A stretch of 64,000 nucleotides of DNA from the human T2T-CHM13v2.0 reference genome, Homo sapiens, in the NCBI GenBank assembly GCA_009914755.4, contig CP086569.2, forward strand, positions 32,896,001 to 32,960,000, in the 5' to 3' direction. The notes below the pieces were generated by a model. The model ran no database searches and was not told the DNA's origin. It saw nothing but the letters and a program-made list of their open reading frames with translations. Below, piece by piece: positions 832 to 64,000 of this stretch (position 1 is the stretch's first letter; every line of letters starts with the position of its first letter). The position numbers and the translations under genes were made by a program.

Positions 832-1126
832 TTTTTTTTTAGACAGAATCTTGTCCTGTTGCACATGGTGGGGTACAATGGCGCCATCTTTGCTCACTGC
901 AACTTCTGCCTCACGGGTCCAAGCGATTGTCCTCCCTCAGCCTCCCAGGTAGCTGGGACTACACCACACTGGGACTACACCAGCTGCCACCATGCCTAGC
1001 TAATTTTTTGGATTTTTAGTAGTGACAGCGTTTCACTGTATTGGCCAGGATGGTCTTGATCTCTTCACCTTGTGATCCCCTTGCCTTGGCCTCCAAATTT
1101 GCTGGGATTACAGGCCTGAGCCAAGA
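832..1126 (-). mobile_element. Alu SINE, AluY-like, 5'-truncated; ancestral copy amplified with the satellite unit
   Basis: A T9 run at 832-840 is the poly-A tail on the minus strand. The reverse complement reads ggctcaggcctgtaatcccagcaaatttggaggccaagg..., and ccaggatggtcttgatctc is the AluY-type GATGGTCT/GATCTC signature. Many former CpG sites read TG or CA. Confidence 0.9.
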
Positions 1127-1700
1127 TCCATATTTTGTAAATGAAAAAAAATTTCAAAGGTACTCTGCTTGGTACAATAATCAAATGTATAAACTGAGGA
1201 ATAAAACATAACCATGAAACCTACTTATAACTGCATATGGAAAATACAGAGGATAATTTTTTAAATAACATATTTTGAAAGCCTTAACTAGTAATTTGAA
1301 GAGTTGGCATTTGAAAGGCCAGTATGAATATACCTTCAAAGCAGCAACACAGGTTCCCCATGAGAAAAAGCAAACACAGGGAAAATAAAAACACAAAGGT
1401 TCAATCTCTTCTGACCTTTGAAAGACACAGCACAGACAGTGGTCCTTAGGACGAAGAGCAGGAGACCCCTAATTCCGTCACCATGGCGATAGGGCATAAA
1501 CATTGCTGGGTGAGGGCACAATCCACATTGTGAGGTCCAACTGCTGCCAGGAAGACAGGAGTGCTTTTACATAGACCGAAAGGTCATTGAAGGCTCAGAG
1601 TTTTGTTTCAAGAACTGAATCCCAAGCCCACACGTTATTAGGCTGCGCTTCTTAAAACAAGTTATGAGATGGGAAAAAGGGCACCCACAAACATACGTAT
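1127..1700. other. Unit-internal ~575 bp unique, unclassified segment of moderate GC content, between the Alu 5' end and the AT block. Representative of all units.
   Basis: It is not low-complexity and retains CpGs (acgtta, gcgctt, ccgtcac, gacgaag, gaccgaaag). It carries the spurious 61-aa and 71-aa ORFs. No recognisable protein or RNA gene signature. Confidence 0.7.
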
Positions 1701-3240
1701 ACATTATGTATAAAATAATATACAGTGTCATATATATAATATATATAACCTAGGTATAATATTGTTTTACATCCTGCATCTTATGTTATTTATATTGTAT
1801 AAAATATAATAATAGATAATATATAAGTTTTATAATTATACAATATGACATATAGTATATATTATAATTTATGACATATAAAATATATGTTATATATCAT
1901 ATATAGAATATATTATACGGTTAATATACGTATTAAATATAAATTATACATTATATATATTATATATAATATATCTGTTATATATAATACCCATTATGCA
2001 TAATATATATATTATGTCTATGTTATATATAGTATAAAACAACATATAATAATATATAATTGTATATATAAAATGCGACATATAATATATATTATATTTT
2101 ATAACATATGTAATATATATTATATATAATACGTTGTATGTATAATACCTATATTAAATATATATTATATGACTATGTTATTAATTACATGTCACATGTG
2201 TTATATATTATATATTTTACATAGAATATACCGGTTACATACAATATATACTATGTTACCTATAATGTATAATTTATTACATGTAAAATAAAGAATGCAA
2301 TATATTATGTATAATTTATAATATACAATATGTGGAATGTGATACATATAACATATAATATATGATATATGATATACAGTACATGATATATAACATACAA
2401 TATATGATTCCTAATATATATGGTATACAATATATATTTTATGATATGTATCCTATATGTTTTATATTCTGTTATATATAACTATTTGAAATTATATATA
2501 ACTGTATAATATTTTATGTAAATATGTAATATAATATATATAACTATATAATATATTATATATAACTATATATTATGTTATATATACTTTTATAACATAA
2601 TTTACATAAAATATCATAATATAATATATATTATATTATTTCATATTACATAATATATATTACATATCACCCAATATAACTAACATACATAATATTATAA
2701 TATAGATTATATTGTGTTATATTAAATATCATATATATCATGTATCATATATTCTATAATATATATTACACATTATATAATATGTATGTTGTCTATTATG
2801 TGATATATATAACTATATATATAATTATATTTTTTACATATAACTAGATAAACATGTAATTCTACATATTTTCATTTATAATATGTAGAATTATATAATC
2901 ATATATAATTATTTATATTGTATAAAAAATTTTATCATTATATAAATTATAATATATAAAAATTATATGTACTACAAATATATATATTATATATCATATA
3001 TGATATAGTACCTTTGTTATATATCATAATACATATAAATGTGTATTATGTTATCTATAATTATATAATTTCATATATAAGATGTATAATATGTATCATA
3101 TATTATATATGTTATGTAATATATATAGTATATATAAGATGACACAGGATAAATATTATATACTATGACATATAAAATATATGAGGTTATATGTTACATA
3201 TAAGGCATAGCACATATCATGTAATATATATCATATATAA
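1701..3240. repeat. Unit-internal AT-rich low-complexity block, ~1.5 kb and ~85-90% A+T. Representative of all units.
   Basis: Degenerate repeats of tatataactata, atatgatatat and (ta)n. The rare G/C islands are conserved across units, for example accggttacatacaat, aaaatgcgacatataat and tacggttaatatacgtatt. Confidence 0.85.
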
Positions 3241-3535
3241 TTTTTTTTTAGACAGAATCTTGTCCTGTTGCACAGGGTGGGGTACAATGGCGCCATCTTT
3301 GCTCACTGCAACTTCTGCCTCACGGGTCCAAGCGATTGTCCTCCCTCAGCCTCCCAGGTAGCTGGGACTACACCACACTGGGACTACACCAGCTGCCACC
3401 ATGCCTAGCTAATTTTTTGGATTTTTAGTAGTGACAGCGTTTCACTGTATTGGCCAGGATGGTCTTGATCTCTTCACCTTGTGATCCCCTTGCCTTGGCC
3501 TCCAAATTTGCTGGGATTACAGGCCTGAGCCAAGA
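3241..3535 (-). mobile_element. Alu (unit copy), A-type head
   Basis: T9 at 3241-3249, collinear with the Alu at 832. Confidence 0.9.
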
Positions 3536-61259: not shown

Positions 61260-61554
61260 TTTTTTTTTAGACAGAATCTTGTCCTGTTGCACAGGGTGGG
61301 GTACAATGGCGCCATCTTTGCTCACTGCAACTTCTGCCTCACGGGTCCAAGCGATTGTCCTCCCTCAGCCTCCCAGGTAGCTGGGACTACGCCACACTGG
61401 GACTACACCAGCTGCCACCATGCCTAGCTAATTTTTTGGATTTTTAGTAGTGACAGCGTTTCACTGTATTGGCCAGGATGGTCTTGATCTCTTCACCTTG
61501 TGATCCCCTTGCCTTGGCCTCCAAATTTGCTGGGATTACAGGCCTGAGCCAAGA
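61260..61554 (-). mobile_element. Alu (unit copy), C variant
   Basis: Collinear with the other copies. Confidence 0.9.
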
Positions 61555-63672
61555 TCCATATTTTTTAAATGAAAAAAAATTTCAAAGGTACTCTGCTTGG
61601 TACAATAATCAAATGTATAAACTGAGGAATAAAACATAACCATGAAACCTACTTATAACTGCATATGGAAAATACAGAGGATAATTTTTTAAATAACATA
61701 GTTTGAAAGCCTTAACTAGTAATTTGAAGAGTTGGCATTTGAAAGGCCAGTATGAATATACCTTCAAAGCAGCAACACAGGTTCCCCATGAGAAAAAGCA
61801 AACACAGGGAAAATAAAAACACAAAGGTTCAATCTCTTCTGACCTTTGAAAGACACAGCACAGACAGTGGTCCTTAGGACGAAGAGCAGGAGACCCCTAA
61901 TTCCGTCACCATGGCGATAGGGCATAAACATTGCTGGGTGAGGGCACAATCCACATTGTGAGGTCCAACTGCTGCCAGGAAGACAGGAGTGCTTTTACAT
62001 AGACCGAAAGGTCATTGAAGGCTCAGAGTTTTGTTTCAAGAACTGAATCCCAAGCCCACACGTTATTAGGCTGCGCTTCTTAAAACAAGTTATGAGATGG
62101 GAAAAAGGGCACCCACAAACATACGTATACATTATGTATATAATAATATACAGTGTCATATATATAATATATATAACCTATGTATAATATTGTTTTACAT
62201 CCTGCATCTTATGTTATATATATTGTATAAAATATAATAATTCATAATATATAAGTTTTATAATTATACAATATGACATATAGTATATATTATAATTTAT
62301 GACATATATAATATATGTTATATATCATATATAGAATATATTATACGGTTAATATACGTATTAAATATAAATTATACATTATATATATTATATATAATAT
62401 ATCTGTTATATATAATACTCATTATGCATAATATATATATTATGTCTATGTTATATATAGTATAAAACAACATATAATAATATATAATTGTATATATAAA
62501 ATGCGACATATAATATATATTATATTTTATAACATATGTAATATATATTATATATAATACGTTGTATGTATAATACCTATATTAAATATATATTATATGA
62601 CTATGTTATTAATTACATGTCACATGTGTTATATATTATATATTTTACAAAGAATATACCGGTTACATACAATATATACTATGTTACCTATAATGTATAA
62701 TTTATTACATGTAAAATAAAGAATGCAATATATTATGTAAAATTTATAATATACAATATGTGGAATGTGATATATATAACATATAATATATGATATATGA
62801 TATACAGTATATGATATATAACATACAATATATGATTCCTAATATATATGGTATACAATATATATTTTATGATATGTATACTATATGTTTTATATTCTGT
62901 TATATATAACTATTTGAAATTATATATAACTGTATAATATTTTATGTAAATATGTAATATAATATATATAACAATATAATATATTATATATAACTATATA
63001 TTATGTTATATATACTTTTATAACATAATTTACATAAAATATCATAATATAATATATATTATATTATTTCATATTACATAATATATATTACATATCACCC
63101 AATATAACTAACATACATAATATTATAATATAGATTATATTATGTTATATTAAATATCATATATATCATGTATCATATATTCTATAATATATATTACACA
63201 TTATATAATATGTATGATGTCTATTATGTGATATATATAACTATATATATAATTATATTTTTATACATATAACTAGATAAACATGTAATTCTACATATTT
63301 TCATTTATAATATGTAGAATTATATAATCATATATAATTATTTATATTCTATAAAAAATTTTATCATTATATAAATTATAATATATAAAAATTATAATAT
63401 ATACTACAAATATATATATTATATATCATATATGATATAGTACCTTTGTTATATATCATAATACATATAAATGTGTATTATGTTATCTATAATTATATAA
63501 TTTCATATATAAGATGTATAATATGTATCATATATTATATATGTTATGTAATATATATAGTATATATATGATGACACATGATAAATATTATATACTATGA
63601 CATATAAAATATATGAGGTTATATGTTACATATAAGGCATAGCACATAACATGTAATATATATCATATATAA
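61260..63672. repeat. Unit U26 (2413 bp), class C/A mixed
   Basis: Has gggactacgccac and the tail atatgatgacacatgat, but aaaaacacaaagg and cacccacaaac. Confidence 0.8.
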
Positions 63673-63967
63673 TTTTTTTTTAGACAGAATCTTGTCCTGT
63701 TGCACAGGGTGGGGTACAATGGCGCCATCTTTGCTCACTGCAACTTCTGCCTCACGGGTCCAAGCGATTGTCCTCCCGCAGCCTCCCAGGTAGCTGGGAC
63801 TACGCCACACTGGGACTACACCAGCTGCCACCATGCCTAGCTAATTTTTTGGATTTTTAGTAGTGACAGCGTTTCACTGTATTGGCCAGGATGGTCTTGA
63901 TCTCTTCACCTTGTGATCCCCTTGCCTTGGCCTCCAAATTTGCTGGGATTACAGGCCTGAGCCAAGA
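63673..63967 (-). mobile_element. Alu (copy 27) at the start of partial unit U27; the window ends 33 bp later
   Basis: T9 at 63673-63681. Variants cctcccgcagcc and gggactacgccac. Confidence 0.9.
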
Positions 63968-64000
63968 TCCATATTTTTTAAATGAAAAAAAATTTCAAAG

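What the first reader, a model, noticed from the sequence alone, without database searches (positions are those of the whole stretch)
832..64000. Block-wise organisation of unit subfamilies (A, B, A, B, A, C) indicates local homogenisation
Linked diagnostic sites define the classes:
- Alu head: gaatc/ggggtac against gagtc/ggagtac.
- ctaattttttggatttttag against ctaatttgttggattcttag.
- caaacacaggg against caaactcaggg.
- aaaaacacaaagg against aaaaccacaaagg.
- Pre-Alu tail: ataagatgac, ataagctgac or atatgatgac.

The classes are not interspersed at random. They run in order: A (U1 to part of U2), B (U2-U11), A (U11 tail to U14), B (U14 tail to U18), A (U19-U22), then C (U23-U26, with cacccagaaac and the MW-start ORF). 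Unit length tracks the blocks: all C units are 2413 bp and most B units are 2418-2420 bp. This is the pattern expected from unequal crossing-over or gene conversion spreading variants between neighbouring repeats.
Basis: seen in the sequence. Interest (0 to 1): 0.5.

Follow-up and report, generated by a model that had tools for sequence, protein, structure and literature searches.

The report
Subfamily blocks in human DYZ2 satellite
The window is a stretch of the human 2.4-kb DYZ2 (HSat1B) satellite in which two sequence variants of the repeat really do lie in alternating multi-unit blocks joined by hybrid units, which is the already documented signature of unequal exchange and gene conversion in this satellite and is therefore ordinary.

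Summary
The whole window (1-64000) is one tandem array of 26 complete and 2 partial units of about 2420 bp. U23-U26 form a nearly identical C subclade of A. The order is far from random: permutation p <= 5e-5 for neighbour similarity, and 5 runs against 13.9 expected (p = 1.7e-4).

Units are mosaics: four-gamete incompatibility rises with distance and Rm >= 19. There are recent one-unit expansions (U3/U4, U22-U26) and a three-unit duplication (U6-U8 and U9-U11).

One qualification applies. A is the majority type in unrelated copies recovered from contaminated public contigs, and B states also occur there. Only C appears to be local. The A/B alternation is therefore an interleaving of two older subfamilies.

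The repeat matches published DYZ2/HSat1B in every feature I could test. Local homogenisation, unequal exchange, whole-unit de novo indels and interlocus gene conversion are all published for it. Verdict: real, correctly read, already known, low interest.

The parts
1..840 (.). Tail of a preceding partial unit (U0), class A at its tail marker. The array continues beyond the left end of the window.
832..1130 (-). Example of the Alu-derived part of a unit (poly-T head on the + strand). It is a 5'-truncated AluY-like element on the minus strand.
   Evidence: weak hit to the Alu-derived mir-1268.
841..3313 (.). A block 1: U1 and the first 64 columns of U2.
3313..3785 (.). A-to-B switch interval inside hybrid unit U2 (columns 64-536).
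3785..26276 (.). B block 1: U2 body to U11 column 1263.
5671..10510 (.). U3 and U4, a recent one-unit duplication within B (0.5% apart).
   Evidence: bootstrap 97%
12929..27433 (.). Three-unit duplication: U6-U8 (12929-20178) and U9-U11 (20179-27433). Tracts of 1.6 kb and 2.5 kb differ by 6 and 14 positions at lag 3.
   Evidence: U6+U9 99%, U7+U10 97%
26276..26455 (.). B-to-A switch interval inside hybrid unit U11 (columns 1263-1442).
26455..32803 (.). A island: U11 tail, U12, U13 and U14 head. It differs by 1.2-1.8% from the other A units.
32803..33212 (.). A-to-B switch interval inside hybrid unit U14 (columns 536-945).
33212..44203 (.). B block 2: U14 body to U18 column 2270.
44203..45618 (.). 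Patchy B/A transition (U18 tail and the first half of U19). Markers alternate AA|bbb|A|bb|A.
45618..54029 (.). A block 3: U19 tail to U22.
54030..63681 (.). C block: U23-U26, all 2413 bp and 0.2-0.6% apart. Private states lie at columns 848 (U23-25 only), 1712, 1956, 2140 and 2310.
63682..64000 (.). Head of a following partial unit (U27) with A-type head markers. The array continues beyond the right end of the window.

Best explanation
**What it is.** The window is a 64-kb piece of a human DYZ2/HSat1B satellite array, most probably from Yq12 and less probably from an acrocentric short arm. Each unit of about 2420 bp has three parts: a 5'-truncated, roughly 18%-diverged AluY-like element on the minus strand, a segment of 39% GC, and a segment of 86% AT.

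**What the units look like.** Two unit subfamilies, about 2.2-2.6% apart, lie in alternating multi-unit blocks. A is the type that predominates in independent copies of the satellite. B is a minority type.

**How the pattern arose (inferred).** Out-of-register exchange between copies of the array, that is unequal sister-chromatid or intrachromatid crossing-over, left one hybrid unit at each block border. It also duplicated stretches of one unit (U3/U4, U22-U26 giving class C) or three units (U6-U8 and U9-U11). Shorter gene-conversion patches then shuffled markers between units.

**Shown and inferred.** Shown here are the non-random block order, the hybrid junction units, the mosaicism that increases with distance, and the multi-unit near-identical tracts. 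The molecular mechanism itself is inferred here. It has been observed directly for this satellite in pedigrees and by Strand-seq in the cited papers.
For: **Identity of the repeat**
- The ungapped consensus is 2420 bp, GC is 24%, and there are 16 CpG per unit, or 1 per 151 bp. Published DYZ2 values are a 2420-bp consensus, 24% GC and 1 CpG per 150 bp.
- The Alu part is 81.6% identical to AluY and 5'-truncated. [quoted passage not shown]
- The ACATACG motif sits at the junction of the GC-richer and AT-rich parts, as described.
- Contaminant contigs in bacterial assemblies are 96.8-99.6% identical to the window consensus. Rhie et al. report exactly this contamination for HSat1B.

**Blocks and statistics**

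**Exchange**
- Hybrid units occur at four different intra-unit positions.
- Four-gamete incompatibility rises from 4.6% to 32% with distance, and Rm >= 19.
- The nearest relative of a unit changes from segment to segment.
- Near-identical tracts cross unit borders at lag 1 (7.9 kb with 25 differences; 4.0 kb with 18 differences) and at lag 3.

**Class distribution elsewhere**
- In 38 unrelated contigs, A states account for 363 of 420 diagnostic calls and B states for 48. C-private states are essentially absent.
- Window units differ from the external majority sequence by 0.5-1.0% for A and C units and 1.3-1.9% for B units.

**Published mechanism**
- Rhie et al. report unequal exchange and sister-chromatid exchanges in Yq12 in about 15% of Strand-seq libraries.
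- Hallast et al. report homogenisation within arrays.
- PMC12240836 reports about one de novo 2416-4839 bp DYZ2 indel per Y transmission, and 29% of Yq12 de novo SNVs matching non-orthologous copies.
Against: - No reference genome could be searched, so chromosome and position are not established. A Y location rests only on the published abundance of HSat1B (14 Mb on Y against small amounts on the acrocentrics).
- Crossing-over and long-tract conversion cannot be told apart from a single haplotype. A 6-7 kb conversion tract could have made the A island with both of its borders in one event.
- Some isolated marker 'patches' (U6 column 2312, U8 column 1263, U13 column 995, U20 column 1263) and the scattered 7-bp tatatat deletion could be recurrent mutation or slippage in AT-rich sequence rather than conversion.
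- The external copies come from collapsed short-read contigs or noisy long-read contigs. They reflect majority bases and are not a random sample of units.
Confidence: 0.85

Rival explanations
1. The A-B-A-B pattern arose by one or two segmental duplications of a multi-unit stretch that already held an A|B junction. Under this view, independent exchanges did not create each border.
For: - Both A-to-B junction units (U2 and U14) have an A head and a B tail, and their tails resemble those of U3 and U4.
- A 1.9-kb tract running from the U4 tail through most of U5 matches the U14 tail and U15 at lag 10 with 8 differences.
- Iterated multi-unit duplication is documented in Yq12.
Against: - The switch intervals do not overlap. 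U2 switches between columns 64 and 536, U14 between 536 and 945, and at column 536 the two units differ.
- The two B-to-A borders also differ: U11 switches at columns 1263-1442, and U18/19 at 2270-2278 plus patches.
- U2 and U14 are 1.8% apart, and U1 is 1.3-1.5% from U12 and U13. No recent long lag-12 tract was found.
Confidence: 0.1
2. The blocks are an artefact of assembly or polishing of a long satellite array, through collapsed or consensus-smoothed units or chimeric joins.
For: Satellite arrays are hard to assemble. Nothing in the window itself proves read support.
Against: - Units within blocks still differ by 0.2-2%, with many private sites.
- Class haplotypes are built from variants that also occur in independent contigs from other samples.
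- Unit composition and length match the published values.
Confidence: 0.03
3. The array has a regular higher-order repeat, that is a fixed multi-unit period of subfamilies as in alpha satellite, rather than irregular blocks.
For: - In the B blocks, three Alu/HSATI sub-types recur: U5-U6-(U7)-U8 and U15-U16-U17.
- U6/U9 and U7/U10 pair at lag 3 with 97-99% bootstrap support.
Against: - Mean distance by lag rises from lag 1 (14.8 per 1000) to a plateau of about 20 per 1000, with no periodic minimum.
- The lag-3 signal is confined to a single pair of triplets.
- Block lengths are irregular: about 9, 3, 4.6 and at least 8 units.
Confidence: 0.02

Closest known systems
DYZ2 / HSat1B satellite of human Yq12 (Frommer et al. 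1984 from memory; Rhie et al. 2023, 10.1101/2022.12.01.518724; Hallast et al. 2023, 10.1101/2022.12.01.518658)
   Same: - Unit of about 2.4 kb with a 2420-bp consensus.
- The same three-part composition: a 5'-truncated diverged AluY, a GC-richer HSATI part and a part of more than 85% AT.
- 24% GC and 1 CpG per about 150 bp.
- The ACATACG motif at the HSATI/AT-rich junction.
- Units mostly at least 98% identical to the majority sequence.
- Local homogenisation and unequal exchange reported.
   Different: Nothing differs in kind. This window shows, at single-unit resolution, two subfamilies interleaved with mapped hybrid units. The papers I read describe divergence from a consensus per unit or per array, and I did not see that level of detail in them.
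Concerted evolution of tandem repeats by unequal crossing-over and gene conversion (Smith 1976; Dover's molecular drive; from memory)
   Same: Neighbouring repeats are more alike than distant ones, hybrid repeats lie at block borders, and copy-number steps are whole units.
   Different: If the array is on the Y, exchange must be between sister chromatids or within a chromatid. Homogenisation here is incomplete: within-class divergence is 1-2%, apart from C and U3/U4.
Alpha-satellite higher-order repeat arrays
   Same: A tandem array whose sequence variants cluster by position, with younger homogenised cores.
   Different: No regular multi-unit period was found. The unit is a 2.4-kb composite containing an Alu, not a 171-bp monomer.

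Membership tests
DYZ2 / HSat1B | Tandem period of about 2.4 kb (published consensus 2420 bp) | tested here: met
   26 units of 2409-2421 bp. The ungapped window consensus is 2420 bp. Published value.
DYZ2 / HSat1B | Composite unit: 5'-truncated ancient AluY (about 20% diverged), a GC-richer HSATI part and a part of more than 85% AT | tested here: met
Segment GC is 0.52, 0.39 and 0.14. Descriptions.
DYZ2 / HSat1B | About 24% GC and about 1 CpG per 150 bp | tested here: met
   Units are 24.2-24.9% GC. There are 16 CpG in 2420 bp. Published values.
DYZ2 / HSat1B | Sequence identity to a reference DYZ2 consensus | tested here: inconclusive
   No reference consensus was available. Indirect evidence is 96.8-99.6% identity to contigs in bacterial assemblies, the class of human HSat1B contamination described by Rhie et al.. 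The ACATACG junction motif is present (described).
DYZ2 / HSat1B | Location in Yq12, alternating with DYZ1 blocks (or on acrocentric short arms) | not testable with these tools
   The window holds only this repeat, and no human reference genome could be searched.
Tandem array evolving by unequal exchange and gene conversion | Physical neighbours more similar than non-neighbours | tested here: met
   Adjacent distance is 0.0148 against 0.0193 in permutations (p <= 5e-5). There are 5 runs against 13.9 expected (p = 1.7e-4).
Tandem array evolving by unequal exchange and gene conversion | Hybrid units at block borders and mosaic units | tested here: met
   U2, U11, U14 and U18/19 are hybrids. Four-gamete incompatibility rises from 4.6% to 32% with distance and Rm >= 19. 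Nearest relatives differ between segments of a unit.
Tandem array evolving by unequal exchange and gene conversion | Duplicated tracts that span whole units and unit boundaries | tested here: met
   Lag-1 tracts of 7.9 kb and 4.0 kb, and lag-3 tracts of 2.5 kb and 1.6 kb.
Tandem array evolving by unequal exchange and gene conversion | Exchange events observed directly | not testable with these tools
   Literature only: de novo 2416-4839 bp DYZ2 indels and conversion-like SNVs, and sister-chromatid exchanges in Yq12.
Higher-order repeat array | A regular multi-unit period of unit types | tested here: not met
   The distance-by-lag profile has no periodic minimum. Block sizes are irregular.

The most novel reading that the evidence does not exclude
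The B islands may be surviving stretches of an older DYZ2 subfamily embedded in majority-type array. The mapped intra-unit junctions (U2, U11, U14, U18/19) together with the lag-1 and lag-3 duplications would then form a readable record of discrete sister-chromatid exchange events. Such junction 'barcodes', compared across Y haplogroups, could date and count exchanges and test for preferred breakpoints within the unit.
Probability: 0.25. Interest if true: 0.3.

Novelty: already known. Interest (0 to 1): 0.15.

Why it matters
It is a clean, single-unit-resolution example of how a large human satellite evolves in a region without homologous recombination. It shows hybrid units marking exchange points, whole-unit duplications, and conversion-like patches. 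It adds no new principle. The same processes have been described for DYZ2 from complete Y assemblies and seen directly in pedigrees. Its practical value is small: it offers a set of 16 linked markers and mapped junctions that could serve as local landmarks in this array.

Tried and rejected
- **Tandem Repeats Finder.** Its maximum period of 500 cannot see the 2.4-kb unit and reports only internal AT-rich micro-repeats.
- **Viral contigs.** The scan found no copies.
- **First tract scan.** A mismatch penalty of 400 was too strict and found only the C block. It was redone with log-odds weights.
- **First mafft --addfragments run.** It timed out and was rerun with --6merpair.
- **B as purely ancestral.** Divergent external units are equidistant from A and B (about 8.2% against 8.3%). 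They carry the B state at only about 60-67% of differentiating sites, so both lineages have derived changes.
- **A regular higher-order repeat.** Rejected on the lag profile.
- **A single duplicated A|B junction.** Rejected because the breakpoints do not overlap.
- **The 'MW-start ORF' as a C marker.** It is a chance 71-codon TTG ORF on the minus strand. Its W codon comes from the column-551 state, which B units share.
- **Equating the C units' 2413 bp with the published 'most common 2,413 bp'.** That published figure omits 7 nt at a junction, and the true consensus is 2420 bp. The C length comes from a different 7-bp tatatat deletion that is rare in external copies.
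Full report
**What is in the window**

An Alu-head anchor occurs 27 times at spacings of 2409-2421 bp. This gives 26 complete units (U1 = 841-3249 through U26 = 61269-63681). There is a partial unit at each end, at 1-840 and 63682-64000. The array therefore fills the whole window and runs off both ends.

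Each unit has three parts on the + strand:
- a poly-T followed by an antisense Alu, about 290 bp, 52% GC
- a segment of 39% GC, about 570 bp
- a segment of about 1560 bp with 14% GC

The Alu part aligns to AluY positions 13-289 at 81.6% identity (consensus typed from my own memory). Rfam gave only a sub-threshold hit to the Alu-derived mir-1268.

**Identity of the repeat**

The window properties are:
- an ungapped consensus of 2420 bp
- units of 24.2-24.9% GC
- 16 CpG per unit, or 1 per 151 bp
- the string ACATACG where the GC-richer part meets the AT-rich part

Hallast et al. (10.1101/2022.12.01.518658) describe DYZ2/HSat1B in these terms:
- a unit of about 2.4 kb made of an AT-rich simple repeat, a 5'-truncated Alu and HSATI
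- 24% GC and 1 CpG per 150 bp
- a final consensus of 2420 bp
- that same ACATACG junction

Rhie et al. [quoted passage not shown]

Rhie et al. also report that HSat1B is a frequent human contaminant of bacterial assemblies. I used this to fetch independent copies. One conserved 22-mer found 16 contigs in 'bacterial' genomes, and a 30-mer found 22 metagenome contigs. The bacterial-genome contigs are 96.8-99.6% identical to the window consensus. The best-matching pieces of the metagenome contigs reach about 99.4%, and some adjoining pieces are much more diverged.

I could not search a human reference. The chromosome is therefore inferred. Y is most likely because it holds about 14 Mb of HSat1B, against small amounts on the acrocentric short arms.

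A MAFFT alignment of the 26 units has 2423 columns, of which 337 are variable and 122 informative. Mean pairwise divergence is 1.9%.

Sixteen columns separate two classes almost perfectly. They paint the array as follows:

| Segment | Units and columns | Window coordinates |
|---|---|---|
| A | up to U2 column 64 | up to 3313 |
| B | U2 column 536 to U11 column 1263 | 3785-26276 |
| A | U11 column 1442 to U14 column 536 | 26455-32803 |
| B | U14 column 945 to U18 column 2270 | 33212-44203 |
| patchy (AA, bbb, A, bb) | U18 tail and first half of U19 | 44203-45618 |
| A | U19 column 1263 onward | 45618 to the end |

U23-U26 are 0.2-0.6% apart and have five private states.

The corrections are minor:
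- The ctaatttgttggattcttag state marks only the B sub-type of U3-5, 7, 15 and 18.
- aaaaccacaaagg is shared by B and by U23-25, so the 'MW' ORF start is not specific to C. That ORF is a chance 71-codon TTG ORF in any case.
- cacccagaaac is absent from U26.
- U19 is a mosaic.
- Length separates classes only partly. The 2413-bp class is a 7-bp tatatat deletion in U1, U12, U21 and U23-26, while the other A units are 2420-2421 bp, like B units.

**The pattern is more than chance**

- Mean divergence of adjacent units is 0.0148, against 0.0193 +/- 0.0009 for shuffled orders (p <= 5e-5).
- State changes between neighbours across 122 informative sites number 567, against 879 +/- 62 (p <= 5e-5).
- The two-clade labels form 5 runs where 13.9 are expected (p = 1.7e-4).
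- Divergence rises from 14.8 per 1000 at lag 1 to about 20 per 1000 at lags of 4 or more.
- NJ bootstrap support is 96% for A+C, 98% for C, 97% for U3+U4 and 92% for U12+U13. It is also 99% for U6+U9 and 97% for U7+U10, which are three units apart.

**How it arose**

The units are mosaics, so a single tree is only a summary.
- The nearest relative of a unit changes from one segment to the next.
- Among 93 biallelic sites, the fraction of site pairs showing all four gametes rises steadily with distance. It is 4.6% below 50 bp and 32% above 1200 bp, and Hudson-Kaplan Rm is at least 19. Recurrent mutation alone would not depend on distance, so this points to exchange between units.

Three of the four block borders are clean one-way switches inside a unit, each at a different position in the unit. 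That is what single out-of-register crossovers, or the ends of long conversion tracts, would leave.

A log-odds scan for unusually similar tracts found the following:

| Lag | Tract | Length and differences |
|---|---|---|
| 1 unit | U22 column 1747 to the end of U25, against the next unit | 7.9 kb, 25 differences |
| 1 unit | U2 tail to U4, against the next unit | 4.0 kb, 18 differences |
| 3 units | U7-U8 against U10-U11 | 2.5 kb, 14 differences |
| 3 units | U6 against U9 | 1.6 kb, 6 differences |
| 10 and 19 units | shorter tracts | not itemised |

The array thus carries recent one-unit expansions and one three-unit duplication.

Isolated single-marker patches exist (U6, U8, U13, U20, and column 551 in U23-25). 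The 7-bp deletion is also scattered across non-adjacent units. These may be short conversions, or recurrent change in AT-rich sequence. I cannot separate the two explanations.

**Are the classes specific to this array?**

I placed the 60 fragments from the 38 external contigs on the unit alignment. In fragments above 96% identity, 363 of 420 diagnostic calls are the A state, 48 are B and 9 are other. B states are mostly at columns 8-995 and almost never in the AT-rich half. C-private states are essentially absent.

Window units differ from the external majority sequence by 0.5-1.0% for A and C units and 1.3-1.9% for B units.

Three contigs join a 99% unit to a 92-94% unit. Those divergent units carry the B state at 11 of 18, 14 of 21 and 6 of 10 differentiating sites. 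They are nevertheless equally distant from A and B overall.

My conclusions from this are:
- A is the common type of the satellite.
- B is an older minority lineage with its own derived changes.
- C is a local derivative of A.

The A/B alternation is therefore an interleaving of two pre-existing subfamilies, not the local birth and spread of variants. Local expansion applies to C and to U3/U4.

One caveat applies. These contigs are collapsed short-read consensus sequences or noisy long-read assemblies, so they reflect majority bases and are not a random sample of units.

**Rivals**

- A single duplication of a stretch holding one A|B junction is unlikely. The breakpoint intervals do not overlap, and the junction units are 1.8% apart.
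- A regular higher-order repeat is not supported. The lag profile has no periodic minimum and the blocks are irregular in size.
- An assembly artefact cannot be excluded without reads. It is unlikely, given the abundant private variation and the recurrence of the same variants in other samples.

**Comparison with what is known**

Everything here is already described for DYZ2.
- Hallast et al. report that units in the middle of an array are more alike than those at its edges, and attribute this to expansion and contraction that homogenise the units.
[quoted passage not shown] They also report sister-chromatid exchanges in Yq12 in about 15% of Strand-seq libraries.
- Porubsky et al. (PMC12240836) observed about one de novo 2416-4839 bp indel of whole DYZ2 units per Y transmission. 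They found that 29% of Yq12 de novo SNVs match non-orthologous copies, and they estimated a rate of 3.86e-7 per bp per generation.
- A 2026 preprint classifies Yq12 de novo variants as intra-array gene conversion (PMC13252187).

With that published rate, the 0.2-0.6% spread within C would correspond to a few thousand generations. The A-B gap of about 2.4% would correspond to about thirty thousand generations. This is a rough inference, because the rate itself includes conversion events.

**Verdict**

The feature is an ordinary, already known property of a known human satellite. Interest is low.

Noticed in passing
L001-L016 (GTDB 'bacterial' contigs) and L017-L038 (metagenome contigs): Copies of this human satellite sit in public assemblies labelled as Mycobacterium, Bifidobacterium, Streptomyces, Azospirillum and others. 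The GTDB contigs are 96.8-99.6% identical to the window consensus. This is human contamination of the kind Rhie et al. reported.
   Followed up: partly
L006:5897-6920 (NZ_HF570958.1, Nostocoides japonicum, 5.16-Mb scaffold): A satellite fragment of about 1 kb (GC 0.38-0.42) lies between runs of N inside a scaffold whose flanks are 0.65-0.78 GC. A contaminant read appears to have been scaffolded into a bacterial chromosome.
   Followed up: partly
window columns 1274-1280 of the unit; e.g. 2113, 28706, 50468, 55302, 57715, 60128, 62541: A 7-bp tatatat deletion defines the 2413-bp length class. It occurs in non-adjacent units (U1, U12, U21, U23-26), only on A/C backgrounds, and in only 1 of about 30 external copies. 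It may be slippage that recurred, or one deletion spread by conversion.
   Followed up: partly
window 12929-13230 (U6 head) and 20179-20480 (U9 head): The Alu heads of U6 and U9 carry a dense cluster of substitutions, about 8-9 differences from every other unit within 300 bp. Some are shared between the two units and some are private.
   Followed up: no
window 54580 and the same column (551) in U24 and U25: C units U23-25 carry the B state (aaaaccacaaagg) at one column inside an otherwise A-type unit, and U26 does not. This is either a short conversion patch or a parallel A-to-C change.
   Followed up: no
L026:1947-4122, L029:2627-5027, L031:1-1497: Units only 92-94% identical to the window consensus lie directly next to 99% units in short-read contigs. 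These may be array edges or another chromosome. They differ from each other by 4-6%.
   Followed up: partly
whole window: Substitutions among units are rich in transversions: 121 transitions against 166 transversions, with A/T changes the commonest class.
   Followed up: no
window 51950-52165 and 54370-54585, minus strand, and equivalents in other units: Short ORFs of 51-71 codons, mostly with TTG starts, recur in every unit because the unit repeats. There is no evidence of coding.
   Followed up: partly
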